Source of the DNA: Candidatus Saccharimonadota bacterium
GTDB lineage: Bacteria; Patescibacteriota; Gracilibacteria; BD1-5; UBA2023
Reading direction: 5' to 3'
Length of the DNA stretch: 32,000 nucleotides
NCBI GenBank assembly: GCA_042852035.1
Contig: BAAFHK010000001.1
Span: 420,001 to 452,000 of the forward strand
In this document: in pieces, positions 15,016 through 32,000 of the stretch
How the letters are laid out: each line of letters begins with the position of its first letter
Numbering within the stretch: the stretch's first letter is position 1
Made by a program: the position numbers and the translations under genes
The notes under the pieces: generated by a model
What the model was told of the DNA's origin: nothing
The model's input: the letters and a program-made list of their open reading frames with translations, nothing else
Database searches by the model: none

Positions 15016-15016
15016 C

Positions 15017-15046
15017 AAAAACCCTCTCATTCGAGAGGGTTTTTAT
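15017..15046 (+). terminator. rho-independent terminator
   Basis: aaaaaccctctc-attc-gagagggttttt directly after the TAG at 15013-15015. Confidence 0.75.
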
Positions 15047-15253
15047 ATACTATAATTCATTTTACTAAGGACTCCTTCTAATCGATCAAATTTAAAACTG
15101 ATTCTTAGTAGAAAATTTCAGATTTGAGATAAGTCAATCAATAGAATTCAGTATTAAGATTCAAGAATCAACAACAAGAAGTTTACTTCTTTCCATTAAT
15201 TAGGAGCTTAGTAGCATATTCATTTTTGAGACTCTTAATATAAGTATTACTCT

Positions 15254-15284
15254 AAAAAAAAGAGTTATTTCTAACTCTTTTTTT
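15254..15284. terminator. orphan bidirectional terminator-like hairpin
   Basis: aaaaaaaagagtta-tttc-taactcttttttt. No ORF lies upstream on either strand. Like the 15017 hairpin, it is followed by tttatatactat. Confidence 0.5.
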
Positions 15285-15546
15285 ATATACTATTTATGGC
15301 AGCACTAGTCTTAAAAAGGTAGAACTTTTACAGACTCTAAATAAGTTGATATTGGCTTCAGAGAAGGGAAATACAAGGAACATATTCACTTGATAGTGAA
15401 GGGATTTTTTAGTCTGCAATTTTTACAACTAACTATTTCTTCAACTATGCCAACATTTATTCTTATCTTTGATAGCTCATAAAAGCTAAAAAAACAATTC
15501 AAAAAGTTCCAACATATTCTATTTATATTACTAATTTTTACAACTT

Positions 15547-15801
15547 ATGTACCCATCAATTATTACAAACACACTAGAACTAAATATACCTTACATCATT
15601 ACACTTATTGAAATATGTTCACTTGATGATCCTGAAGGATATGTAGCCTCATTTGATTTTAATAATCCTGAATCCTTTAATGATTTTCTACAAATACAAT
15701 TTTTAGATTCACTTATTAATTGTTGAGTGATTGAAATAGAAGACACCCAAAATTCAATAATAGTGAAAGCAAGAGGAGAATTTCTTACAAAAATTTCTTA
15801 A
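15547..15801 (+). CDS. small acidic hypothetical protein, family A copy 1 (84 aa)
   Basis: ORF MYPSIITNTLELN...FNDFLQIQFLDSLINCGVIEIEDT. Paralogous to 15855-16118, and the upstream leaders are also similar. Confidence 0.55.
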
Positions 15802-15854
15802 TTCAAATCAAACAAACCAGCAATATTCTTTTAATTTTTAACTTTTTATAACTT

Positions 15855-16118
15855 ATGTATCCAACAATAATTAATGATTCCCTTGAGTTCAATATGCTTT
15901 ATGCCTTTAAACTAGTTTACCTATATTTTATCTGTGATATGGAAGAGTTTGTTAATAAAATAGACATCAATGATCCTTCAACTTTTAATGATTATTTACA
16001 AGTACAATTTCTTCTAAAACTTATAGATGATTGAGTAATTGAGGTAGACACAGAGGCTGAGGATGGTGAATCCATAAAGATACAGGTTTATACAGATTGG
16101 ATCACTCCAGTATTTTAG
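15855..16118 (+). CDS. small acidic hypothetical protein, family A copy 2 (87 aa)
   Basis: MYPTIINDSLEFN...FNDYLQVQFLLKLIDDGVIEVDTE is collinear with copy 1. A TGA=Gly occupies the equivalent position (C/D-G-V-I-E) in both copies. Confidence 0.55.
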
Positions 16119-16167
16119 TTTCCAAGCACAGAAACCCTTATTTTATTTATTAACAATTAATACATTT

Positions 16168-16578
16168 ATGACAACAAAAAATCTTTTAGGGGCATACAAT
16201 ATAGTGACTAACCATTTTGAGCAAACATCCTTAGTAAATAGACTATTTGATGATTGAATAATCAGTCACTCTTTTATAGAATATCACATTACTGGTCTTA
16301 CTGAAGAAGAGGAAGAGAGTGGGGAATGGGAAAATTCTATTGATATTTATGAGTGGTTAGTATTCCCAGAGTTGATAGAGTCAGATTATGAGAAACTTAT
16401 TCAAGCATGAATACCTGTTTTAAAGACAGATTATGCTAATTGGGTTGCTACCACCAGCTATGGTTGTCACTATGATATGTTTATTCACCCTGAACTTATC
16501 AAAGCACTCTTTGATATAGAAACAGATTACTTTGAAATAGCAGAGATGAAGAAAAAGAGCCCTTGTTTGATTTCATAA
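16168..16578 (+). CDS. small acidic hypothetical protein, family B copy 1 (136 aa)
   Basis: YEWLVFPELIESDYEKLIQAGIPVLKTDYANWVATTSYGCHYDMFIHPELIKALFDIE. Paralog of 17112-17483. Confidence 0.6.
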
Positions 16579-17111: not shown

Positions 17112-17483
17112 ATGAAAGCATCATCTCCTCAATACCTGTCTAACTACTATAAATACGTTCGTTCTCATATCAATCAGACAATGCTTGTCGAAGAATTATT
17201 AAAGAAATCTATCATCTCTTATGACGATATAGAATGAATCTATGACGAAGAAACTGAAGAATATAGGGAAGTGTATCAATGGCTTATATTCAATAATTTT
17301 GATTCAAGAGATTATGAAAAACTCATTGCCAATAATATCCCTGTAATTCAATCTGATTATGAAACTTGGGTTGGTATTACTTCATTCTGAAGTCACTATA
17401 ACCTCTACGTATATCCTGAGCTTATCAATGCACTCTTTGATCTCAATATTTCTTATGAAGATATTCAGAATATCTCTCCGTAA
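17112..17483 (+). CDS. small acidic hypothetical protein, family B copy 2 (123 aa)
   Basis: YQWLIFNNFDSRDYEKLIANNIPVIQSDYETWVGITSFGSHYNLYVYPELINALFDLN is collinear with copy 1. Confidence 0.6.
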
Positions 17484-17515: not shown

Positions 17516-18058
17516 TTAAGCATCCCTTAATCTTTCTTTATTTTTTAAGTTATTTATAATAATATTAAGTTTTTCATCAGTTATTCATAGTTTTTTCTTA
17601 TAATCATCTGTATATATTTGAAGTTCCTTATCCAGAAGACTGGCTCTTTCGATAAAATCTGTAAAATATTTGAGCGTCTCTTTAATTCATTGCATAGATG
17701 AAAGTTTTTGGATATTTTCCTTAAAGTATTTGTGTATTAAGTAGTTTCTCATTTCTAATACTTCAATTAATTCCATTTCAATCTTTTCTGAAAAACTATA
17801 AATTTTCTTTAATTCATTTATCTGTTTTCACATTGTATGTCTTTTTCATTCAACTTCATTAACTAAATCATCAAATTCCTCTAGCGAGGTAACGTTATTA
17901 ATGAAAATATTTTTTATCCAAAGCATATTTTCAAATTCCTTTTCTAAGCATTGTCATTTATATATAGCTAAACCAAAATAAGCAAAAATTATTTTATCCT
18001 GAGAATCATTTTGCTCATTCTTATATTCCTCTAGAGCAAACTCATATAAATTAGACAT
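17516..18058 (-). CDS. putative HEPN-domain protein (RNxxxHxY motif), 180 aa
   Basis: All-helical-looking ORF ending ...LIEVLEMRNYLIHKYFKEN. RNYLIHKY fits the Rx4-6H HEPN signature in its DUF86-like form RNxxxHxY. Six in-frame TGA codons. Confidence 0.55.
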
Positions 18059-18076
18059 AGATTGTATTTTTATTAA

Positions 18077-18116
18077 AAATAAATTCTCCATTACTTGCAT
18101 AATAGAGAATTTATTT
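18077..18116 (-). terminator. hairpin downstream of tRNA-Trp
   Basis: aaataaattctc / gagaatttattt is a perfect 12-bp stem with a 16-nt loop. A T-rich tail follows on the minus strand. Confidence 0.5.
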
Positions 18117-18128
18117 TATAAATTAGAA

Positions 18129-18203
18129 TGGCAGCTCTGCTCAGAATCGAACTGAGGTCAACGGCTTTGGAGACCGCTACACTAACCGCTGTGCTACAGA
18201 GCT
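18129..18203 (-). tRNA. trnW: tRNA-Trp (anticodon CCA), CCA-3' encoded, 75 nt
   Basis: Hand-folded cloverleaf: acceptor AGCTCTG/CAGAGCT, D arm GCAC-AGCGGTTA-GTGT, anticodon arm GCGGT-CTCCAAA-GCCGT, 4-nt variable loop, T arm CTCAG-TTCGATT-CTGAG, discriminator G + CCA. A CCA anticodon reads UGG only, so UGA is not Trp here. Confidence 0.9.
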
Positions 18204-18263
18204 AAACAGTGTGTGTGATTATATGAAAAAGATTTTTTTGTCAATGCTAGGAGATGGGAAATA

Positions 18264-18869
18264 TTATTCATTAATCAATAATTCATGACTATCGGCTAAA
18301 GACCAAGTTAATCAATCCAGAATATTTCTAAGAGTATCTATATCGTTATACACTATGGTTACATACGTATATAAATCTGGAATACTCACATAATCTATAG
18401 GATGTTTAATAACACTATCATCTTTCTTGGTTGCATACCTAAAATTCATAGAAGATTCATCTACAATTCAGAACTCTTTTATAATTTCCTGTGTTTCATT
18501 TGGTATTGATATTGGAGAAATCTCTGAAATATCGATAAGCATGAGATTTAGATGATCCAATAGTTCCTTTATTTTATGATTCTTACTAAATCTTTTTATA
18601 TTCTTTCACAACTGCTGCTCTATCACTAGACATCTTTCAATTAATTCTTTCAATGCTATCTCCATAAAATGCCTATATAAAAATACTGCTGGGAATATTT
18701 TTTTATCAATATCGTATCATCAATCAGCAATTATCTGCTCTACAATATTATCTCATGCTAGTTTAAATCCATCAGCTATTCAATAAAGTGTTAGTATGGT
18801 ATTATCTCATTGCCAATTTAAACAAGCGTTTAAATTTGGATAGTTAGGATTCATTCAAAATACATTCAT
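18264..18869 (-). CDS. hypothetical protein with candidate Rx4H motif (201 aa)
   Basis: Open with eight TGA=Gly codons. Contains FLYRHFMEIALKELI ... KRFSKNHKIKELLDHL (R-x4-H) ... SSMNFRYATKKD. The HEPN-like assignment is tentative. Confidence 0.5.
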
Positions 18870-18931
18870 AATATGCTATGGAAAATTAATTACTAACATC
18901 GGATATTCAAGTTTAAAGTATCCAATTTACA

Positions 18932-19873
18932 TTATTGTATATTAAAACTTACAGAGATTCTTTTTGCAGCTTCAAAGAGTTCAGTAGCTAGTTTTTTTCT
19001 TCATCTTCATTCATCTGCCAATCAATCCTTGTGGATTTTTTCTCAGAGAAGTTTTAGGAATTCAGCAAGTTTTCAGTAATTGAGTTTTCAAATTCTCTCA
19101 CCTAGTGTAGCATTAGGAATACCTTGAATATCTGAGGTATGTTTTGGATTAAGGGGAGCTTTTAGAAATGGTTTACAGATTTCCCAAGCAGTCATGATAT
19201 GAATGGATGCTTCTTGAAGATTTTGTGATGCTTTTAGAATTAATCTATCTAATTCAGATGGATCATCTAATTCATTATGTTTCTTAGATTCAAGAGTAAG
19301 AGTCTCACTGAGTTTAGAAAGAACTGCTGCAAGGGCATCATAGTAAAGATCTCCTACCTTTTCAGCTAATTCTTCTTGATTCATTATTATTCATTCAACC
19401 TCTCATCTTTTTATATGTTTCTTAGCCTCTTCATCTAAAACAAAATGTTTTTCTAATGCTTCCTCATAGGTAAGACCTTCCCATTCCATTACTGCAAGAA
19501 CCATAGAATCCAAAAACATATCTATATCTGGATAGACCTTTCTCTCTGTTGCAATATCAATGGTAGTGTAGTGATATTTATCATCACCTACACCCATTCA
19601 TAAACTTCTCATATATTTTGCCTTCTCTGCCTTAGGGAGCACCTTCACTCATTCCTTCATTTTCTTAGCCTGTTCTTCCTGATATTTTATATAAGCTTCA
19701 GCAATATGAGTACCTTCTGAAACTAAAGTAAATACAGGAATGTTGTCTACAAAAACAGTATCTTCATACTTTCCATTTCATAAATCCTTTCTTTCTATCT
19801 TTTGATTAGAAGAAATGGTATATGTCTCAATCTGAGGATTTCAAGAATGTATAAGTGAATCAGGAGTAAGCAT
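18932..19873 (-). CDS. hypothetical protein (313 aa); joins track ORFs 19403-19597 and 19088-19384 in frame
   Basis: No TAA or TAG between the ATG at 19873 and the TAA at 18932-18934. The two track ORFs are linked by ...KKHIKR-G-EVE-G-II-MNQEE..., with the two Gly = TGA at 19403-19405 and 19391-19393. No recognisable domain. Confidence 0.55.
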
Positions 19874-19910
19874 ATGTTTTATTATATAGTATTTTTATAA
19901 ATAATGAAAT

Positions 19911-21959
19911 TTATGGTATTTGTGAGGCAAGAATTTTATAAGTTGTTTTTCAGTCAGGTGTAGTTTGTGGCTCAATCTTCAGTATTTCAATTTTAGTTCA
20001 TGGGAGAAAGAGTGATTCCTGTGGAGTATTTGTTTTGTTTATTTTCTGAGCAAATTGAACAAAGAATGCTAAATCAGATATATCTTTTGCCTGAGTGGCA
20101 TTTATAACTGTAATTTGATAGGTTCAATTATTCCAGAATGGTTCTGTTGGAGGATTGGAAGCGGAAGTAAACCAATCAAGGGTTTTGGTATCTCATTTTT
20201 TAAGTCATCAGAAATTGTGACTGTCTCAGATAAATTGTATAGTGTGTTGTGCTTGTGGCATTTTTTCAAGTCCGGATTGAAGAAGTTTTGCCATTTCTGA
20301 ATTTCTCAAATTTCAACTTCTCATTCACATATTTAATTCTTTATTAAAGAGTCATAAAGTATACCCATATACAGCATGTGCTTCTTCTAATGTCATTCAA
20401 TGTTTTTGAGCTGTTGATTCCACAAGAGCTTTATATTCAGGATCTGTTTTCCAGTTTTTATATTTTGTAGCTATTTTTGATTCTGGAATTCATATTTCCT
20501 GAATTGCTTTGATGTAATTTTCAGGTATTCAGAGTTTTATTAGCTCTCTTATCTGTTCTCATTTTCAGAGAGTTTCAGCAACCTTGGTTTTCACTCATTC
20601 CTGAATCTGTGGAAGTGTAGATTGAACTCTTTCAGCAGTTGCTCTTACTCACTGAGCTCAAATCTCAGTAGCAGTGGTATTTTTTGTAGCAGTGGCAGCA
20701 ATTTCTTTCATTTTTACTACTACTTGCTCTACTTCATCTATAACGTCTAGATTTACTCAATTTTTGAGTCTTTCAGGAGGAGTAATTTTTCCAGATTGTT
20801 TCATCTGCTCCAAACTGGTATCATAGAGCATCTTCTTTAGCTTTTCTTCTCAGAACTTTTCTAGAGCCCAAGCTGAAACATTAGCAGAATTAGGAGCAAC
20901 GGTTCAGAACTTGGCTTTCATATCCCTCTCAAATCCTGCCTTGGCTCATGGGATAAAAAGAAGAACATAGCCTGCAATCTTGGCTGCTTCATCCCCTCAG
21001 AAATATCTGACAGCTTCATGATATGCTCATATTTTTCAGGCATCTGCTAAGATATTTACAGCTCATTTTCCTACTTTCATGAGAGTACCATTACTAGCCT
21101 CAGTCTGTACTACTTTTACTCAGGGAACAAGTACCTTAGCAAGTCTAGAAGTATTTACAGCTTCCATAGTTCCTACTGATGCCTGAATCATTCTTTCTGA
21201 TTTTATTCATTTTGAAATCAGACCTCAAACTGGTCATGATGCTGCCATCACAAGAAGGGAATCAGTTCAGAGAAGTTCATTTCCTATTTCAGAAACATAC
21301 TTCTTCCAGATTTCCTCAGCAATGTTCATCATTTCTTGTTTTGCTATTGCCTCATGTTTTGTACCTTTGAGTTTTTCATAGAGTGGTTGAGCTAGGAGTT
21401 CTCATTTTGGAATCTTTTTTCTGAGTTCTCTGGCTTTATCCAGATAAAAATCTGCCATAGCTTCATCTGGACTTGAACTCTGTGAAGTCATAAGTCTTCA
21501 TTCAGGACTATCCAGAAATGATTTCATCAGTGGATCTTTTTGTATATCTTCCCATCTTTTTCATTCTTTCAGGGCATATTCTATTCTTGGAAGTGCTATA
21601 TTTCTCATTCCCACAAGTTCAGAGTATGCTTCTACAATATCTACTTTGGCTCATGAATTAGTATTTCCATCTCATCTGATGAGAGTAGAGAATCACCAAT
21701 AGTTTTCAGGGGTTACAAAGTTGGAAAATGAATACTCTTTTTCTCTGAGTGCTTTTACTCTTTCTTGCCAATCTTTTACTTGTTTTTGGAACTCTTCTCT
21801 CATCACTGGAAGTCTCTCTGAAAGAACCACTTTCATCTGTTTATCTGTATTAGATTCTGGTGGTCTGGATTGTTCTTTCTGAGCCTCTAATTTCTTTTGT
21901 TCTTTCAGTCTTTCTTCATAGGCTCTATCCTCACTATGTGATGATGGGTTTTCTCACAT
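19911..21959 (-). CDS. large protein with C-terminal ADP-ribosyltransferase(ART)-toxin-like domain (682 aa)
   Basis: Invisible in the standard-code track (>45 in-frame TGA). The C-terminus AHAVYGYTLGLFNKELNMGMRSG ... LEKMPQAQHTIQFIGDS ... LDWFTSAS ... TPQESLFLPGTKIEILKIE follows the ART order (Y-x-YT..N..LR.G / [YF]RG strand / STS-like / catalytic Glu + L-x-PG). The usual Arg is Ile (FIG). The N-terminus is charged coiled-coil. The middle has Gly/Ala-rich hydrophobic segments. Confidence 0.6.
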
Positions 21960-22033
21960 GAACTATTTGTATGTATATTATTAGAAATATAGATACAGAA
22001 TAGCATAATGAGGGGAAATAAGCAAAAAATGAA

Positions 22034-22612
22034 CTATTTCTTTAAGTCCATAAACTTACCATTATTTTCAGAACACTTTGACTCAAAAGAGTATGATAAT
22101 TTTCAGAATTTCATATATTCATTAATTCCAAAGAAATATTTATACTTTGGTGTTCTATTTTCCCAAGAATCTTTTATATCCTCAAATGAATGAGGATAAA
22201 GAATACTAGATAGAGATTTTAGCTTTTTCTTGTCAGAAATTCCTTTCTTATTTGGTTTGGTAAATAATGTTACCTTCTTTTCTGTATAGGCATATTTGAA
22301 TTCTATAAGTGCATAAATTTGGTCTACACACAGAGTCATTTCTAATCATTTTTCATTTTTAGACTGGTTAAAATCCACAATAGCCATATCAATTCTAGCA
22401 GAAGCATCAGTGTCTCATTTTAATATTGGATATTCACACCAAATCCTCAGACTTCATCAATCAATACAGGAGGATAAAGCCTTTCTCAAATGATAATACA
22501 TAGCTGATTGTAAAGTTCACTCTCTAACAAGAAGACTCTTGTTATAACCCTGAATTAAAAGCTCCCAAGCCTCTATGAGACTGTTATGAATAATTTTAGA
22601 TAAATCTTCCAT
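22034..22612 (-). CDS. PD-(D/E)xK-type nuclease-fold protein (192 aa)
   Basis: Motif order ...IWCEYPI ... ARIDMAIVD ... IYALIEFKY (E / D / ExK on predicted strands). Starts 16 nt after the McrC stop on the same strand. Extends track ORF 22103-22339 in both directions through TGA codons. Confidence 0.55.
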
Positions 22613-22627
22613 ACAATTTACAAGTTT

Positions 22628-23905
22628 CTAAAAAATAATACACTCATCATTTTCAAGATCATAGCTTACAGAGATGAGTTCTATGTTCTCATTATCTCCA
22701 TTATGATAATGAAATGATGGTATGCTAGGATTTAAGAAAGCATCTGTTCTAGGATATATGAGATAGAGTTTCTTGGAATGATATTTTCTAGCATAAGCAT
22801 AGAGCTGATACATATCCCCCTGAGAGATTCCATAGTTTCCAGCCTCATCATTTTCATTTATGAGCTTCCACTTTGTATCCATAATGATATTATCATTTTC
22901 AATGTATATATCTGGTTTGAGTTGAAACTTTGGCTTCTCTTTATGGTCTTCTATGAGGGAGTACTTTTTATCCTGAGTTTTTACTATCCATTCTGGTCTT
23001 TTTTCTTTGATTTTCTTGGCTACATAGTTCTCAAAAATCTTCTCCATAGGAAATAGAAGAGAAAAGGCTAAACTATTTCCAGCCATACTCACAATAGATT
23101 CTTCTCTCAGAAATATTCTTACCCAAGAAAGAGTAGGAACATAATAGGAGTGAAGTCTGGAAATATGAGAAGATTGTTCTATATCTTCCTCTATATTGCT
23201 TGATTTAGATATATCATTGAATGCTAGCAGGTATTCCTTTATTCTCTTTTTATTAGCATTATTCTTGCTGAGGGAATTGAGTTTTATAAGGGTGGATTTG
23301 ATGAGTCTATTTTCTGCCACATCCTCAGTAAATTCATCATATTCCACAGCAAATCTTTCTTTATGAAGAAAGTTCCTTCTGATATTTTCCATCACTTTGA
23401 GCCTGCCTTTGAGGAACTTTTCATTGGATTCTATGGTTATATAGTTCTTCTTAATTCCTCTTTTTATGAGAGTACTGAGTTCATCAAGGAAAGAGCCTAT
23501 AAATATCTCTAAAATAGGAAACTTCTGGGTTTTGAGATGAGCCTCATTAACATTCTTAAATGGACTATCTTTCAATGCTTTTAGCATTTTGAGAAATATC
23601 ATTCTTACTACTTTTTCATCTTGTTCTTTGTGAATCTTGGGAAGGATTTCAATAGTTGTGCCATCATGTGTCTGAATTACTCCTACATAATTTTGAGCTT
23701 TTATGATCTTGCCATATTTTTTATGAAAACTCATGGTAAGGATATTTTCTTCTCCATTATTTCATTCTGCTATGAATTTCTCCAAGTCTAAAAATGCTCT
23801 CTCTGAAATAAGAGCATTCTCAGAAGTTGGTTCTACTCATTCTTTGTTATAGAGGAATCCAAACTCTGGAATAGTGATATATGAGTTTGGACTAGTTATG
23901 CTCAT
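22628..23905 (-). CDS. mcrC: McrC-like endonuclease subunit of a McrBC type IV restriction system (425 aa)
   Basis: N-terminus ITIPEFGFLY...AQNYVGVIQTHDGTTIEILPKI. C-terminal nuclease core KPDIYIENDNIIMDTKWKLI...DMYQLYAY. The true ATG at 23905 lies 57 codons upstream of the track start and overlaps the mcrB stop by 14 nt. Confidence 0.85.
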
Positions 23906-26207
23906 AGATTTTTATATATGATGCCTCTGTAATATTTGGATTGAGTCTATATGTCACTTTGTCTTCATACTCTTCATTCTTTATTCCAAGAACTGAGTCT
24001 CTTTTAGAGACAATATCTTGAATAATCTTTTCCTCTCCTTCTTTCCATCATTGCTCTGTATGGTCTCAGAGGATTATCTGGATTTTCTCCCCATCTTCAT
24101 AGAAGTATTCTTGTAAAAGTGGAAGAATAGCTCTCTGGAATATTTCATTCAGCTTTTCTAGTGTTGGAGTGGTTTTGAGTGGAAGAAAAAATGCTTGTCC
24201 CAAAAGATGGTCTCTGTCATAGAGGAATTCTATTCTTTCATTGAGAGTGATAAAAAGCTTCTCTATATCAATATTGCCAACAGAGATTCCAGAGAGGACT
24301 CCACTCTGAGGGGACATCTCAACAAAACTAAATCTTCTTCTGAGTGCTATATCCATAAGAGCAATAGACCTATCTGTGGTATTCATTGTTCCTATGATAT
24401 AGAGATTGTTTGGTACTGTAAATTGTTCTCCTGAATATGGAAGCTTGGCAGTGATTGCTTCATTATTTCCATATCTCTTAGAGGTTTCAATAAGAGTAAT
24501 GAGTTCTCAGAATATCTTGGAAATATTTCCTCTATTAATCTCATCAATGATAAGAACATAGTTCTTTTTTCATTCATTCTTTATAGCTTTTGTGATATTA
24601 TTTTCCTCATCAAACTCTTTGAGTCTCTGATAAAGAGCAAAGAAATAATCAGCATTCCCATTAGCAACAGATTTTGAAGACCTTGAAGGTTTAATATCAT
24701 TTTTGGATTTTATCTTTCCAGAGATGAAATTGCTGTAATCTCTGAGAATTACCTTAGCACTTAATACCTGAAAAGTTTTTCCATTAGAAATATGGAATGA
24801 TTTTACAGAATCTCATTCCTTGGCAACATAGGCTATAATCCAACTTTCTTTTGTAACTCATTTTTCTCAGGGGAACAACTGAGGTCAGAGGGTGGAAACT
24901 CATTTATAATCCTGATATTGAGTTCAAAGTCCTGTGGTTTCACTTTCTTGAATATCATCAATATAGTCTGAATAATTTTTGAGTAACTCTTCAACTAATG
25001 ATTCATTATCTTCTGTTTGAGAGATGGAATAATTACTTTTTGCTGTCTCACAGACTTTCTTAAAAATTCAGGGAACAACTTCATATTTTACTTCCCCATT
25101 TTCTGTTTTAGCTTTGAGCCCTTCTATGAAATCCTCATAAGAAAAAGATTGGTGAAAAGTGGTAAATACCACTTGTCCTTTGGTTCTATATTCATTGAAT
25201 CTTCTGAGGAGTTCAGTTCTATCTTCCTGTTCTAATTCTTCTATACTTTTCTCTTCAATAATTGAAAGAGCATGATTAATAGAATGATATGTTTTTCCAG
25301 TTCATGGAGGTCAATAGAGTATTTGATTGAGAGGAGTATTTTTCATAGATTTTTGAGGAAGAGATATGATTTCAGGGGTAGGAGAGATTTTTTCTTGTTT
25401 TGATACTGGTTCTTTCTTCTCTTCCAGTGAATGCTGAACTACATAGGCAATTCTATCTGCTATGAGATTTTCTTGGAGGATTTCTTTCTCCTCAAGTGTG
25501 AGAAAATCAAAGTCAGGAGTATCTACTTCTACATAAGGTCTATAATCCTCAATTTCACTCTCAAACTGGTTCTTGAATTCCATATAATCTCCTGAGGCAT
25601 CTCCCATCTTGCTATAATCCATACTATGGTCTCAGAGAAATCTGAGAAAGTCATAGGCAATTCCATTAGAGATAAAGTTTTCCTTTTTGGTAAGATTGTA
25701 TATTCCTTCCAATTCAAATACTATTGAGCCTCATACATATTTGAGATCTTGATAGTCTGCTTTTTCAATTTTTTTTCATTCCTGAATTACTTTCAGAAGA
25801 TGAATATATTTCTCCAGAGAATTAGTGAAGTATCCCTTATACATATTAGACTTTGTGAGTCCAATACTAGTTGCAGAGTTTAGATGGAGAAATATATCAT
25901 TTTCTAGTGATTCTAAAATCAAAATAAGGGAAGGATTCTTTAGAAACTCTTTCATTTTGGTAGTAATATCTCTCCAATTAATCTGAGAAGCAAAGTAAAG
26001 TCCATCTACCTTTTTTTGAACTAATAGAAATTCATCAAGGATACTTTGATTATTTTTGATCTTTTCCCACTCATTCAAAATAGTAGTAACTCATTTTCTG
26101 ATATGGAGAAAGTTATCTACATTATGCTTATAAGAAACAGCCTTTGTAAATACATCACTTTGTCTCAGTATATCTTGAATTTGAGAAATCTTAACCTCTG
26201 AAATCAT
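23892..26207 (-). CDS. mcrB: McrB-like AAA+ GTPase subunit with unassigned ~290-aa N-terminal region (771 aa)
   Basis: Walker A ILYGPPGTGKT (both non-GKT Gly are TGA, at 25311-25313 and 25302-25304). Also FHQSFSYEDFIEG, Walker B [25 protein letters not shown], and IIGTMNTTDRSIALMDIALRRRFSFVEM. Track ORFs 24066-24386, 25311-25622 and 25776-26078 share this frame. Confidence 0.9.
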
Positions 26208-26238
26208 ACATATTTAGTGAGTGGATAAATTGTATTTC

Positions 26239-26266
26239 ATTATATCTTTTCTAGCATATTGTCCAA
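26239..26266 (-). promoter_or_regulatory. sigma70-like promoter for mcrB (TTGGAC-16 nt-TATAAT on the minus strand)
   Basis: Reverse complement of gtccaa (26261-26266) and attata (26239-26244). The -10 lies ~32 nt upstream of the ATG at 26207. Confidence 0.4.
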
Positions 26267-26856: not shown

Positions 26857-26900
26857 AGAAATAGATAAAAGCCTCAATTATGAGGCTTTTATCTATTTCT
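26857..26900. terminator. bidirectional terminator between convergent genes
   Basis: agaaatagataaaagcctca-atta-tgaggcttttatctatttct is a perfect 20-bp stem. It overlaps the TAG (26893-26895) of the minus-strand gene. Confidence 0.75.
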
Positions 26901-29899: not shown

Positions 29900-30379
29900 A
29901 TGGAGATTACTTACGGGCTTTTAGCTATAATAATAGTTTTGTTATGATACAAGATTTACTGTGACCAATTGTCACAAAAGAAATTGAGTAAGCAAATAAA
30001 GGAGTCCGTTGAACCTAAATTTCTTGATATAGCAATCTCTCCAGAATCCCAAAAACTGATCTCTCTTGCAATCGATATATGGAGACTAGAATGAAAAATT
30101 CATAATTCATGAATATCAAAAGATTGACTTGAGGCAGAGAAGATCAAAACTAGCCTTGAGCGGTTAAAAAAATTTATGAATGACTATTGAATTGCAGTAA
30201 AAGACTTCATATGAGATAAATATGTTAATGAGATTAATTTTCTTGAGCTAAAGTGAACTGAGAATACAACAGATAAATCTAAAGATTGAATAATTAAAGA
30301 TACCATTGAGCCAGTAGTGTATGTCAATTGAACTGTTGTAAAAACAGCTAAGGTTATTGTTTATAAATTTATTGCTTAA
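29900..30379 (+). CDS. membrane-anchored GrpE-like nucleotide-exchange-factor candidate (159 aa)
   Basis: N-terminal TM helix YGLLAIIIVLLGY, a helical middle, and a C-terminal beta region GIAVKDFIGDKYVNEINFLELKG...IIKDTIEPVVYVNGTVVKTAKVIVYK. That region resembles the GrpE C-terminus pattern (G..FDP..HeA ... GY...rvlRpA.V.V). Ends 10 nt before the Hsp70 ATG. Confidence 0.4.
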
Positions 30380-30389
30380 AAAATCATAT

Positions 30390-32000
30390 ATGCCTACCAT
30401 CCAAATTTGAATTGATTTATGAACCACAAATTCTGCAATTGCAATTAATAAATCAGGAAAGACCGAAATAATTAAGAATTTTGAAAGAGATGAATTTACT
30501 CCTTCAGTCTACTGATTCGATAAAGCCAAGAATCCTCTTGTATGAAAGCGTGCTTATGAAAAGCTTTACAAATATGCTGATAGTGAGGATATTTGAAACT
30601 TCAAATCTGAGATAAAGAGACTAATGTGAACTCCTGAAATTACTTATTTTCCAAGAGTTGAAAAAAGCATGAAAGCAGAAGATATTTCTGCTGAGATATT
30701 AAAATATCTTAAAAGTACGGCACTGAAACAATATCCAGATCTTGAAACTAATTGAGTAGTTATTACAGTGCCAGCACATTTTTCAACTATAGAATCAGAA
30801 GCTACTAAGAGGGCTGGTGAACTTGCTTGATTCAAAAAAGTTGTATTATTACAAGAGCCTATTGCTGCAGCAATAGCATATGGCTTTTCTGCTGATAAAA
30901 ATGCAAACTGGCTCATATACGACCTCTGAGGCGGCACGTTTGATACAGCTATAATCCAATCCATGGATGGTTTATTAAATATTTTATCAAGCAAGGGAGA
31001 TAATTTTCTCTGATGAAAAGATTTTGATTGGGCTATTGTAGATAAGATATTTATTCCAAAAATCCTAGAAAAATTTAATTTACTAAATTTTAATAGAGGA
31101 AATGAAAAATACAGAAATGCATTTAACCTGTTAAAATGATTTGCTGAAAATGCTAAAAAAATGCTCACATATGATAATGAGGTTACTATTGAGATTGATA
31201 AAATTTGAATGGATGACAATGAAAAGGAAATTTATATGAATATAACTTTAACTCGAAAAGAATTTGAAGAGCTAATAAATCCTTTTATTAAGAAATCAAT
31301 ATCACTTGTAGAAGAAACTATTAAAGAATCATGAATTAGTAAAAATAAAATAGATAAGATTGTCCTTGTTGGATGAAGCACACAAACCCCTTATATTAAA
31401 GAAAAGTTAGAAAAAGAAATTGGCATCTCCGTGGACTCAAGTGTTGATCCTCTCACTGTGGTAGCATATGGAGCATCTGTATATGCACAAACTCAAGTTA
31501 TAGAAATAGAGAAAGATAATAAAAAAACTTATAATTCCGAGTTACATAATATAAAATTGAATTTCGAGACCGTTACTACTGAAAGTGAGGAAACTATAAG
31601 TGGTATAATTGACGGACTTGAGGAAAACAAGGAATACTATCTGCAAATTCAAAGTGAAAGTGGTTATTATTCAAGCAATAAGATCCTTATTAGAAATTGA
31701 AAATTTATTACAGATGTTCAAGTTGAATCAGGAAAAGTAAACCTTTATTGGATATATTTATTTGATTCATCATGATGAGTTTTAGAGCTATCTACAGATA
31801 GTTTCTCAATAACTCATGGATTAACGGTGGGAGCAATACCAATACCATCAAGTATTGGTGTGTCTATAGCGAGACAAAATAGCGATACACTGTCTTGGCA
31901 ATCAGAAATGTTTTGGTTCTTTGAAAAAAATTCAAAATTACCATTATCTAAGACTCATGAATTTAAAACAACGAGCACAATTAGAAAATGAAGTGCTGAA
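30390..32000 (+). CDS. Hsp70-family ATPase, non-canonical C-terminal region; 3' end beyond the window
   Basis: IQIGIDLGTTNSAIA (Gly = TGA at 30408 and 30420), VVITVPAHFS, LLQEPIAAAIAYG, LIYDLGGGTFD (TGA at 30927), VLVGGSTQTPYIKEKL, DPLTVVAYGASVYA. No DVTPLSLGIE-type linker follows the NBD. Instead there is a ~110-aa unrelated segment, then ITHGLTVGAIPIPSSIGVSIA. Confidence 0.9.

What the first reader, a model, noticed from the sequence alone, without database searches (positions are those of the whole stretch)
17516..26207. 8.7-kb co-directional conflict array: McrB-McrC-extra nuclease-ART-like toxin-313 aa-Rx4H protein-tRNA-Trp-HEPN
Seven protein genes and one tRNA lie on the minus strand with short gaps (-14, 15, 74, 37, 62, 60 and 70 nt), downstream of one good promoter at 26239-26266. 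A type IV restriction module is directly followed by a second nuclease-fold gene. Next comes a 682-aa protein ending in an ART-toxin-like domain, then an unknown 313-aa ORF and two proteins with Rx4-6H motifs. None of the last five is visible under the standard code. This combination (modification-dependent restriction + ADP-ribosyltransferase-like effector + HEPN RNase candidates) is not a named defence system that I know. It could be a defence island of independent modules, or a single multi-effector system. Either would be notable in a reduced CPR genome.
Basis: inference. Interest (0 to 1): 0.7.

Follow-up and report, generated by a model that had tools for sequence, protein, structure and literature searches.

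The report
Restriction genes beside swappable toxin cassette
The "8.7-kb conflict array" in this Gracilibacteria (TGA=Gly) genome is not one system but a mosaic of independently gained units: an ordinary McrBC restriction pair, a small possible nuclease, a polymorphic ADP-ribosyltransferase toxin with its immunity gene, an orphan gene, and a separately conserved tRNA-Trp plus HEPN-like gene pair.

Summary
Seven minus-strand genes and tRNA-Trp lie at the stated coordinates and gaps. They are readable only with TGA = Gly (code 25), and the source is a Candidatus Altimarinota (Gracilibacteria) MAG.

The single-system reading does not hold. Comparison with 20 related loci shows separable modules:
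- McrB-McrC is present in the window and L013 but absent in L014, behind the same conserved promoter block.
- g3 is an optional small gene with a PD-(D/E)xK-like motif and sub-threshold DUF6602 matches.
- g4-g5 is a self-contained cassette with its own conserved 68-nt leader. In the closest relative (L011) it is the only part shared with the window.
- g6 is a near-ORFan, and its Rx4H motif is no better than chance.
- tRNA-Trp followed by g7 (HEPN/HepT-like, invariant RNxLxH) is a conserved pair with its own promoter, found elsewhere in a housekeeping context.

g4 is a polymorphic toxin. It has a conserved, unannotated N-terminal domain of about 440 aa and a swappable C-terminus. In the window the C-terminus is a Tre1/C3-like ADP-ribosyltransferase, supported by profile, Pfam and Foldseek evidence. 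Other loci carry motif-inferred kinase-like or RelA/SpoT-like ends. g5 co-varies with the ART domain, as an immunity gene would. The window's ART has Ile in place of the catalytic Arg, yet it is under strong purifying selection (omega 0.018).

The parts
26239..26265 (-). Conserved promoter-like block TGGACAATATGCTAGAAAAGATATAAT heading the unit
   Evidence: Identical upstream of McrB in L013 and 26/27 identical directly upstream of the g3 homolog in L014, which lacks McrBC. The surrounding sequence has diverged.
23892..26207 (-). McrB-like AAA+ GTPase subunit (771 aa). Walker A GPPGTGKT at 299, Walker B LIIDEINR at 552, MNTTDR at 606, with about 240 aa inserted between the Walker motifs
   Evidence: Pfam AAA_5 E=9e-14. 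NCBIfam McrB E=4.6e-37, below the equivalog cut-off. Motif positions.
22628..23905 (-). McrC nuclease subunit (425 aa), overlapping McrB by 14 nt; D..D-x-K motif (KPDIYIE 330, MDTKWK 342)
   Evidence: Pfam PF10117 McrBC E=2e-95, full-length match. NCBIfam McrC E=4e-25. 96% aa identity to L013, omega 0.08.
22034..22612 (-). g3, 192-aa optional accessory gene; possible PD-(D/E)xK nuclease (invariant E60, D75, E104-F-K106)
   Evidence: Only 4 homologs. Motif invariant in the family. DUF6602 weak in 5/5 members, best E=0.008. Present upstream of g4 homologs in L012, L013 and L014 but absent in L011, L004 and L005. AF2 model unusable, pLDDT 40.
21960..22027 (-). Conserved ~68-nt leader / promoter-like region belonging to the g4 cassette
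   Evidence: Nearly invariant in 7 loci, including L011 and L004, which lack g3, and L008, whose upstream sequence differs. L011 homology to the window starts at 22029.
20640..21959 (-). g4 N-terminal domain (aa 1 to ~440): conserved, all-helical, with no known family; presumed delivery/trafficking module
   Evidence: Conserved in all 10 homologs. No Pfam, PADLOC, PHROG, NCBIfam or PDB match. No signal peptide or TM helix. Remote homologs also carry no Pfam domain here.
19911..20537 (-). g4 C-terminal toxin module (aa ~475-682, plus the stop codon): Tre1/C3-like ADP-ribosyltransferase fold. Ile577 (20229-20231) replaces the catalytic Arg; Ser599 and Glu648 are retained
   Evidence: Profile vs PDB: Tre1 6dre_B E=6.6e-6, C3 E~0.014. 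PF03496 in 4/6 family members. Foldseek top 49 hits are all R-S-E ARTs. Same domain at the C-termini of DUF637/CdiA-like, Rhs and VgrG proteins. Omega 0.018 vs L011.
18932..19873 (-). g5 (313 aa), predicted cognate immunity protein of the ART domain; no known family
   Evidence: A homolog lies immediately downstream of g4 homologs only where the ART C-terminus is present (L004, L005-7, L008, L011, L013). Unrelated genes follow other C-termini. No Pfam or PDB match.
18264..18869 (-). g6 (201 aa), near-ORFan of unknown role (possibly an orphan immunity gene); not HEPN
   Evidence: Cluster of 2 sequences. No relatives in the genome or metagenome scans. No family or PDB hit. hhalign vs the g7 family gives probability 1.7%. 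Rx4-6H arises by chance in 30% of shuffles.
18218..18244 (-). tRNA-Trp promoter-like site (TTGACA 18239-18244, TATAAT 18218-18223)
   Evidence: Both hexamers and their spacing are conserved upstream of tRNA-Trp in L016/L017, while the flanks differ.
18129..18203 (-). tRNA-Trp (anticodon CCA)
   Evidence: ARAGORN; Rfam RF00005, 63 bits.
18076..18117 (-). 18-bp hairpin just 3' of the tRNA (terminator-like)
   Evidence: Inverted repeat I12, 94% complementary, 6-nt loop.
17516..18058 (-). g7 (180 aa), HEPN/HepT-like protein with an invariant R-N-x-L-x-H motif (R at 17747-17749)
   Evidence: Family alignment. Pfam HepT-like in 4/7 members, best E=1.4e-4, below the gathering score. NCBIfam HepT_toxin E=0.003. 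The tRNA-Trp-then-g7-homolog adjacency is conserved in L016, L017 and L019.

Best explanation
The array is a mosaic of at least four independently inherited units that happen to be co-oriented.

(1) McrB-McrC is a conventional type IV (modification-dependent) restriction pair. McrB is the AAA+ GTPase and McrC the PD-D/ExK nuclease. The pair is inserted between a conserved promoter and g3.

(2) g3 is an optional small gene, possibly a DUF6602/RmuC-like PD-(D/E)xK nuclease.

(3) g4-g5 is a polymorphic toxin-immunity cassette. g4 has a conserved ~440-aa N-terminal module (inferred: export or delivery) fused to an exchangeable C-terminal warhead. Here the warhead is a Tre1/C3-class ADP-ribosyltransferase, which would use NAD+ to ADP-ribosylate an essential target in a recipient cell (inferred). 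g5 binds and neutralises it in the producer (inferred from position and co-variation). New C-terminus-plus-immunity pairs are swapped in by recombination.

(4) tRNA-Trp plus the HEPN-like g7 is a separately promoted, separately conserved pair.

g6 is an orphan gene of unknown role between units 3 and 4.

Shown: gene identities, ART fold, modular presence/absence, C-terminus/immunity co-variation, selection. Inferred: secretion, target, immunity by binding, transcription units.
For: McrBC: PF10117 E=2e-95, AAA_5 and NCBIfam McrB/McrC hits, intact motifs.

Modularity:
- L014 has the same promoter block directly before g3-g4, with no McrBC.
- L011, the closest g4 relative (88% nt), shares only window 22029-18969, i.e. 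leader + g4 + g5.
- L004 and L005 have g4-g5 without g3 or McrBC.
- L013 keeps McrB-McrC-g3-g4-g5 but then has different genes where the window has g6, tRNA and g7.

Toxin: the N-terminus is conserved and the C-terminus variable in 10 homologs. A g5 homolog follows only ART-type C-termini. Against L013, synonymous divergence (dS) is 0.09 for g3, 0.47 for the g4 N-terminal part and 2.6 for the g4 C-terminus.

ART fold: the profile hits Tre1 at E=6.6e-6 and C3 at about 0.014. PF03496 matches 4/6 members. The top 49 Foldseek hits are all ART toxins, and the viral library also returns ARTs. The same domain terminates CdiA-like (DUF637), Rhs and VgrG proteins.

Functional constraint: omega is 0.018 for the C-terminus and 0.12 for g5 against L011.

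Separate units: conserved g4 leader; conserved tRNA promoter and a post-tRNA hairpin; tRNA-Trp followed by a g7 homolog in a housekeeping context in L016, L017 and L019.
Against: - No recognised secretion or trafficking domain, signal peptide or TM helix in g4, so export is inferred only from the architecture.
- The window's ART lacks the canonical NAD+-positioning Arg (Ile577), and Pfam PF03496 does not detect this copy itself.
- The AF2 models are low-confidence: 49.5 for g4 and 40 for the g3 proxy.
- McrB-McrC-g3-g4-g5 order is retained in one other genome (L013) behind a single promoter, so co-transcription and some functional coupling cannot be excluded.
- g4 cassettes sit near R-M systems in three loci (McrBC, XhoI, type I), which also fits a defence-island setting.
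- No transcript data are available.
Confidence: 0.78

Rival explanations
1. Single multi-effector defence operon. One promoter drives McrBC, g3, the ART toxin, g5, g6, tRNA-Trp and g7. Together they act as a coupled anti-phage system combining restriction, ADP-ribosylation and RNase activity.
For: All genes are co-directional with short gaps. A conserved promoter block lies upstream of McrB. McrB-McrC-g3-g4-g5 order is conserved in L013.
Against: L014 lacks McrBC behind the same promoter. L011, L004 and L005 have g4-g5 alone. g6 has no counterpart in any locus, and tRNA-g7 occurs without the rest in L016, L017 and L019. g4 and the tRNA each have their own conserved upstream elements. No PADLOC system model matches beyond McrB-type AAA hits.
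Confidence: 0.05
2. g4-g5 is an intracellular toxin-antitoxin or abortive-infection module. The large N-terminal domain would be a sensor or regulator rather than a delivery module, and the ART would kill the infected producer cell.
For: No signal peptide, TM helix or known secretion domain. The cassette lies next to R-M systems in the window, L013 and L004. Large serine recombinases and mobile-element genes are nearby in several loci. ART toxins are known in TA systems such as DarT and ParT (PMC8120803).
Against: A constant N-terminus with swappable C-termini, together with a matching downstream gene, is the defining architecture of secreted polymorphic toxins. The same C-terminus is carried by CdiA-like, Rhs and VgrG delivery scaffolds. 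The closest solved relative is the interbacterial T6SS effector Tre1.
Confidence: 0.14
3. The window's g4 is a catalytically dead remnant, because the R-S-E arginine is replaced by isoleucine. g4-g5 would then be decaying baggage.
For: Ile577 (ATC) stands where five other family members have Arg (AGA). The Arg positions NAD+ in R-S-E ARTs (PMC8120803). PF03496 fails to detect this copy.
Against: Omega is 0.018 over the C-terminus at dS = 0.89 against L011, which shares the Ile. Ser599 and Glu648 are retained. Non-Arg residues (Met, Ile) occur in about 7 of 58 relatives, including full-length CdiA-like and Rhs toxins. The ORF is intact with 38 in-frame TGA-Gly codons.
Confidence: 0.03

Closest known systems
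McrBC type IV modification-dependent restriction system (E. coli McrB/McrC)
   Same: An AAA+ McrB with Walker A/B and the MNxxDR signature, followed by an overlapping McrC with a full-length PF10117 match and a D..D-x-K nuclease motif.
   Different: Scores are far below the NCBIfam equivalog cut-offs (128 vs 637 bits and 89 vs 338 bits). The N-terminal DNA-reading domain is unrelated, and about 240 aa are inserted between the Walker motifs. Target specificity is unknown.
Tre1-Tri1 (Serratia proteamaculans T6SS ADP-ribosyltransferase effector and immunity; PDB 6DRE/6DRH)
   Same: Best sequence-profile and structural match of the g4 C-terminus. It is an R-S-E-class ART used as an interbacterial toxin with an adjacent immunity gene (PMC8120803).
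   Different: In the window copy Arg is replaced by Ile. g4 has no PAAR domain and there is no T6SS context. g5 has no DraG/ARH domain and no detectable similarity to any known family.
Polymorphic toxin systems (CdiA-CT, Rhs-CT, LXG and MuF toxins with cognate immunity)
   Same: Constant N-terminus with variable C-terminal toxins. Here the toxin is an ART. Kinase-like and RelA/SpoT-like ends are inferred from motifs in other loci, the latter followed by an HD_4 hydrolase gene. The immunity gene lies immediately downstream and co-varies with the C-terminus. An apparent orphan immunity gene (168 aa) is present in L008/L013. The toxin domain is shared with CdiA-like, Rhs and VgrG proteins.
   Different: The N-terminal ~440-aa domain matches none of the known trafficking domains, and no cognate secretion system is identifiable in the window.
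HepT/HEPN RNases (type VII toxin-antitoxin HepT-MntA)
   Same: g7 has an invariant Rx4H motif at the expected C-terminal position and weak HepT-like profile hits.
   Different: Scores are below the curated thresholds. There is no MNT/nucleotidyltransferase partner gene. Instead g7 is consistently linked to tRNA-Trp.
DUF6602 / RmuC-like PD-(D/E)xK nucleases (for example the single-gene 'Damona' anti-phage cassette)
   Same: All five g3-family members weakly match DUF6602 over the region holding the D75 and E104-x-K106 motif. DUF6602 is described as RmuC-related (bioRxiv 10.1101/2024.07.02.601686).
   Different: The best E is only 0.008 and the scores are below the cut-off. There is no structural confirmation.

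Membership tests
McrBC type IV restriction | McrB AAA+ GTPase with Walker A, Walker B and the McrB signature | tested here: met
   AAA_5 E=9e-14; NCBIfam McrB E=4.6e-37; GPPGTGKT 299, DEIN 554, MNTTDR 608
McrBC type IV restriction | Adjacent McrC with a PD-D/ExK nuclease core | tested here: met
   PF10117 E=2e-95 over the full profile; 14-nt overlap with McrB; D332 and D343-x-K345
McrBC type IV restriction | Cleavage dependent on modified DNA and GTP | not testable with these tools
   Needs biochemistry
Polymorphic toxin system | Conserved N-terminal region with alternative, unrelated C-terminal toxin domains among homologs | tested here: met
   Alignment A1: aa 1 to ~440 conserved in 10/10; at least 4 different C-termini
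Polymorphic toxin system | Immunity gene immediately downstream that co-varies with the C-terminal domain | tested here: met
   g5 homolog present only after ART-type C-termini; other C-termini are followed by unrelated genes
Polymorphic toxin system | Toxin domain shared with other delivery scaffolds | tested here: met
   C-terminal hits at the ends of DUF637/CdiA-like, Rhs and VgrG proteins
Polymorphic toxin system | Recognisable secretion/trafficking domain or signal | tested here: not met
   No Pfam, PDB or Foldseek match for aa 1-470; no signal peptide or TM helix
R-S-E (C3/Tre1-like) ADP-ribosyltransferase | ART fold | tested here: met
   Foldseek top 49 PDB hits are all ART toxins (TM to Tre1 0.57-0.62), although the model has pLDDT around 55-70 in this region. 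Profile E=6.6e-6 to Tre1.
R-S-E (C3/Tre1-like) ADP-ribosyltransferase | Catalytic Arg (Y/F-R-G) | tested here: not met
   The window has F-I577-G-D (ATC). L013, L008, L004 and L005 have R (AGA). 45 of 58 relatives have R.
R-S-E (C3/Tre1-like) ADP-ribosyltransferase | STS-motif Ser and catalytic Glu | tested here: met
   F-T-S599-A-S and Q-E648-S-L-F-L-P; Ser in 52/58 relatives, Glu in 47/47
Tri1-type (ARH/DraG) immunity | ADP-ribosylhydrolase domain in the immunity protein | tested here: not met
   No Pfam or PDB match for g5 or its family profile
HEPN / HepT RNase (g7) | Conserved Rx4-6H motif near the C-terminal helix | tested here: met
   R-N-x-L-x-H invariant in 7/7 members
HEPN / HepT RNase (g7) | Significant profile match to a HEPN family | tested here: inconclusive
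   PF01934 best E=1.4e-4 in 4/7 members, below the gathering score; NCBIfam HepT E=0.003 vs a cut-off of 60 bits
HEPN / HepT RNase (g7) | Partner MNT antitoxin gene | tested here: not met
   The neighbours are tRNA-Trp and unrelated genes in the window and in L016-L019
HEPN (g6) | Conserved Rx4-6H motif plus profile similarity | tested here: not met
   A single RFSKNH motif, expected in 30% of shuffles; hhalign vs the g7 family gives probability 1.7%; no family hits
PD-(D/E)xK nuclease (g3) | E/D...D...(D/E)xK motif on an alpha-beta-beta-beta core | tested here: inconclusive
   E60, D75 and E104-F-K106 invariant. DUF6602 in 5/5 members, best E=0.008. AF2 pLDDT 40 and Foldseek gave nothing.

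The most novel reading that the evidence does not exclude
The conserved ~440-aa N-terminal domain of g4 has an invariant acidic/Gln-rich leader (PSS..E..L.EQKK..Q.EQSRPPES) and two Gly/Ala-rich hydrophobic segments. It could define a previously unrecognised delivery route by which code-25 Gracilibacteria, which are thought to be episymbionts or predators, export interchangeable toxins (an ART, and motif-inferred kinase-like and (p)ppGpp-synthetase-like domains) into host or competitor cells. They would do this without any known T5SS, T6SS or T7SS. The Arg-less x-S-E ART would be a distinct catalytic sub-type.
Probability: 0.3. Interest if true: 0.7.

Novelty: new variant of a known kind. Interest (0 to 1): 0.42.

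Why it matters
The finding removes a tempting but wrong inference, namely that co-directional conflict genes form a new defence system.

What remains has moderate value. It is a documented polymorphic toxin-immunity family in a recoded CPR lineage, and every member is annotated 'hypothetical'. Many database copies are also mistranslated, with TGA read as Trp. The family has an unclassified N-terminal module and an unclassified immunity family.

If the N-terminal module is a delivery device, it would give a handle on how these reduced-genome, host-dependent bacteria attack or compete. The Arg-less but strongly constrained ART is a testable case for non-canonical catalysis in R-S-E ARTs.

Tried and rejected
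- AF2 on a g3 proxy (P0011, which has W at the TGA sites) gave pLDDT 40, and Foldseek found nothing significant.
- Full-length g4 AF2 gave pLDDT 49.5. It was usable only for the C-terminal domain.
- g5 and g3 family profiles against PDB sequences found nothing. The g5 family against Pfam also found nothing.
- The g4 N-terminal profile (A12) against the PDB found nothing.
- g6: scans of the genome and metagenome collections, and the PDB sequence search, all found nothing. A link between g6 and the g7/HEPN family was rejected.
- g4 homologs were not found on viral contigs.
- I tested whether the gene downstream of a CdiA-type toxin with the same C-terminal domain (L020) resembles g5. The score was only 9.5 bits, which is uninformative.
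- The generic promoter/terminator scan was no better than shuffles, and it missed the conserved promoters because of their 15-nt spacers.
- I searched for att-like direct repeats bounding the array. No convincing ones were found.
- I considered tRNA-Trp as an island integration site. The conserved tRNA-g7 pairing in another genome argues that the tRNA and g7 are resident and the upstream genes are the variable part, but no att site was found.

Full report
**1. Observation**

The window has 32.5% GC. Reading TGA as sense raises ORFs of at least 100 aa from 3,069 to 16,513 aa in total. In McrB the Walker A motif reads LY-TGA-PP-TGA-TGKT, which is GPPGTGKT only if TGA = Gly, so the genome uses code 25. 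The g4 protein is 100% identical to NCBI 'HHAS10_04450, Candidatus Altimarinota bacterium' on a 750-kb contig.

Seven minus-strand genes and tRNA-Trp(CCA) occupy 17516-26207. The gaps are -14, 15, 74, 37, 62, 60 and 70 nt, exactly as reported. My models for g3-g6 are identical to the NCBI proteins HHAS10_04430 to 04460, all annotated 'hypothetical'.

**2. Gene identities**

- **McrB (771 aa):** AAA_5 E=9e-14 and NCBIfam McrB E=4.6e-37. **McrC (425 aa):** PF10117 E=2e-95 across the whole profile. Catalytic and nucleotide-binding motifs are intact. Both score well below the E. coli equivalog cut-offs, so they are family members and not orthologs.
- **g3, g4, g5, g6:** no significant hit in Pfam, NCBIfam, PADLOC or PHROGs.
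- **g7:** weak HepT/HEPN hits over its RNYLIH motif (Pfam E=0.007, NCBIfam E=0.003).

**3. g4 is a polymorphic toxin**

Only 10 homologs exist among 5.8 billion clustered proteins. Residues 1 to about 440 align in all of them. After that, the window, P0002-P0005 and P0007 share one C-terminus, while P0006, P0008, P0009 and P0010 each carry something else. After re-translation with code 25:
- The L003 and L012 C-termini carry kinase-like HxDxHxGN...IDFG/IDWG motifs.
- The L001 C-terminus has a RelA/SpoT-like ETQLHIR motif and is followed by a gene with a weak HD_4 hit.

These two readings rest on motif inspection only.

The window-type C-terminus is an ADP-ribosyltransferase on three independent grounds:
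- A 6-sequence profile hits Tre1 (6DRE_B, E=6.6e-6) and C3 exoenzymes (E about 0.014-0.02), aligning the Y-R-G and F-x-S-x-S motifs.
- Pfam ADPrib_exo_Tox matches 4 of the 6 members, best E=2.8e-5.
- The AF2 model has low overall confidence (49.5; about 55-70 in the C-terminus). Even so, its top 49 PDB Foldseek hits are all R-S-E ART toxins, led by Tre1 with TM 0.57-0.62. The viral library also returns phage ARTs.

An exhaustive HMMER search found the same C-terminal module (aa ~475-663) at the C-termini of DUF637/CdiA-like, Rhs-repeat and VgrG proteins. This is the classic behaviour of a shared toxin warhead.

The N-terminal domain is all-helical and has no signal peptide or TM helix. It has no match in Pfam, PDB sequences or PDB and viral structures. 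Its remote homologs also carry no Pfam domain in that region.

**4. g5 behaves as the cognate immunity gene**

Code-25 ORF comparison shows a g5 homolog immediately downstream of g4 homologs only where the ART C-terminus is present:

| Locus | g5 identity |
|---|---|
| L011 | 85% |
| L004 | 61% |
| L013 | 59% |
| L008 | 57% |
| L005-7 | 43% |

Other C-termini are followed by unrelated genes. In L012 a kinase-like C-terminus is followed by a 168-aa gene. That same 168-aa gene sits after g5 in L008 and L013, so it looks like an orphan immunity gene left behind by a cassette replacement.

Against L013, nucleotide identity is 93-94% from the promoter to window 20825. It then drops to 72% over the C-terminus and 81% over g5. 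Synonymous divergence against L013 tells the same story:

| Region (vs L013) | dS |
|---|---|
| g3 | 0.09 |
| McrC | 0.23 |
| g4 N-terminal part | 0.47 |
| g4 C-terminus | 2.6 |
| g5 | 0.77 |

This is the signature of a recombined C-terminus-plus-immunity module. g5 has no ARH/DraG domain and no detectable relative of known function, so it would be an occlusion-type immunity protein of a new family. That is an inference.

**5. The missing arginine**

The window, P0002 and L011 read Q-F-I577-G-D (ATC). L013, L008, L004 and L005 have R (AGA), and Tre1 and C3 also have R at this position. In R-S-E ARTs this Arg positions NAD+ (PMC8120803). Ser599 and Glu648 are retained.

The domain is nonetheless under very strong purifying selection: omega is 0.018 at dS = 0.89 against L011. 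Among 58 relatives of the C-terminal domain, the Arg column is R in 45, M in 4, and I in 3. One of those three Ile calls looks like an alignment artefact. The Met variants include full-length CdiA-like and Rhs toxins. Glu is invariant in all 47 sequences that cover it. So this is a recurrent Arg-less sub-type, not a dead gene.

**6. Modularity of the array**

| Locus | Arrangement |
|---|---|
| L013 (44-kb contig) | XhoI R-M ... McrB-McrC-g3-g4-g5, then 168/430/505-aa genes and a large serine recombinase; no g6, tRNA or g7 |
| L014 | The 27-nt promoter block of window 26239-26265 (26/27 identical) directly in front of g3-g4; no McrBC |
| L012 | g3-g4 with a different C-terminus |
| L011 (closest g4 relative) | Shares only window 22029-18969 (leader + g4 + g5); unrelated genes on both sides |
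| L004, L005-7 | g4-g5 only |
| L001-3, L009-10 | g4 N-terminus with other C-termini and other downstream genes |

None of the g4 loci outside the window and L013 has McrBC. The ~68 nt upstream of g4 are nearly invariant in seven loci, whatever lies further upstream, so the cassette carries its own leader or promoter.

g6 is a near-ORFan (cluster of 2). It has no relatives in the genome or metagenome scans and no family or PDB hits. Its single RFSKNH motif arises in 30% of shuffles, and it is unrelated to the g7 family.

**7. tRNA-Trp and g7**

In L016, L017 and L019 a g7 homolog (66% identity) lies about 100 nt downstream of tRNA-Trp(CCA), in a housekeeping neighbourhood (rpsB, tsf, CNNM) with no McrBC or toxin. 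The TTGACA...TATAAT pair upstream of the tRNA (18244-18218) is conserved there in sequence and spacing. An 18-bp hairpin (18076-18117) follows the tRNA in the window.

The g7 family has an invariant R-N-x-L-x-H motif and sub-threshold HepT-like matches in 4 of 7 members, best E=1.4e-4. So g7 is a plausible HEPN protein, but it belongs to a tRNA-linked unit and not to the restriction or toxin genes.

**8. g3**

The family has only four database homologs, all from close relatives. E60, D75 and E104-F-K106 are invariant. All five members scanned (the window copy, three re-translated loci and P0014) weakly match DUF6602, best E=0.008, over that region. DUF6602 is described as RmuC-related and as the domain of the single-gene 'Damona' anti-phage cassette (bioRxiv 10.1101/2024.07.02.601686).

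Structure prediction failed, with pLDDT 40. A nuclease fold is therefore plausible but unproven. g3 is linked neither obligatorily to McrBC (L014) nor to g4 (L011, L004).

**9. Conclusion**

The 'single multi-effector system' is not supported. The array is a co-oriented mosaic. Its most interesting component is a Gracilibacteria polymorphic toxin family with an unclassified N-terminal module, a new immunity family and an Arg-less ART variant.

I found no paper that connects Gracilibacteria or Patescibacteria with such toxins of their own.

- **Novelty:** new variant of a known kind.
- **Interest:** moderate (0.42).
- **Main uncertainties:** the export route, the ART's target, and the true transcription units.

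Noticed in passing
window 16168-16578 (+) and 17112-17483 (+); L013 5690-6160 (-), L014 2337-2756 (-), L004 9400-9864 (-): Two paralogous small ORFs of unknown function (shared ...DYxxWVxxTSxGxHY...PELIxALFD motif) lie at the far end of the array. In L013, L014 and L004 a homolog (54-59% identity) sits instead immediately upstream of, and divergent from, the promoter or g4. The family therefore travels with the cassette but in a different position. It has no Pfam or PHROG match.
   Followed up: partly
L001 9657-11264, L005 7109-8719, L009 15069-17030, L013 17229-19136: A large serine recombinase (Resolvase + Recombinase domains) lies 1-6 kb downstream of the g4-type toxin-immunity cassette in four independent loci. 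This suggests the cassettes ride on, or sit at the edge of, integrative elements. No recombinase is present in the window.
   Followed up: no
L003 10001-12169, L012 548-2620, L001 4903-7065: Alternative C-termini on the same N-terminal scaffold. Two are kinase-like (HxDxHxGN...IDFG/IDWG). One is RelA/SpoT-like (ETQLHIR) and is followed by a gene with a weak HD_4 (alarmone-hydrolase-type) hit, which resembles a toxic alarmone synthetase with a hydrolase immunity protein. These readings rest on motif inspection only.
   Followed up: partly
Database proteins P0002-P0008, P0010-P0014, P0016-P0021: Logan, ENA and JGI gene calls for these code-25 organisms translate TGA as Trp (table 4) instead of Gly. 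Public protein sets for this lineage therefore carry systematic G-to-W errors, for example 38 positions in g4. This can degrade profile searches and structure prediction.
   Followed up: partly
window 15016-16167: A 1.15-kb AT-rich stretch (GC 25-29%) with no ORF of at least 100 aa under code 25 and no Rfam match, between a secreted-protein gene and the small-ORF paralogs. A 27-nt segment (15692-15718) is 78% complementary to the McrB 5' leader (26211-26237).
   Followed up: no
window 26857-26900: A perfect 20-bp inverted repeat with a 4-nt loop lies between convergent genes. It is probably a bidirectional terminator. A 28-30-nt exact copy occurs in L013 (5674-5701) and L014 (2319-2348), next to the small-ORF homolog.
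   Followed up: partly
window 30390-32000 (+), with 29900-30379 (+): A non-canonical Hsp70/MreB-like ATPase (PF00012 E=3e-77 over the N-terminal 380 aa) has a divergent C-terminal region that runs off the window. It is preceded by a 159-aa protein with a hydrophobic N-terminus. It could be a conflict-related or cytoskeletal Hsp70-like protein rather than DnaK.
   Followed up: no
window 24569-25035 (McrB codons ~390-545): The ~240-aa insertion between the McrB Walker A and Walker B motifs is the only part of McrB that does not align at the nucleotide level with L013. McrB overall has omega 0.39, compared with 0.08 for McrC. This is a fast-evolving insert of unknown role.
   Followed up: no
window 26239-26265 and 18218-18244: Both conserved promoter-like sites have a 15-nt spacer between near-consensus -35 and -10 hexamers, shorter than the canonical 16-18 nt. 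That is why the generic scan missed them. It may reflect the promoter geometry of this lineage.
   Followed up: no
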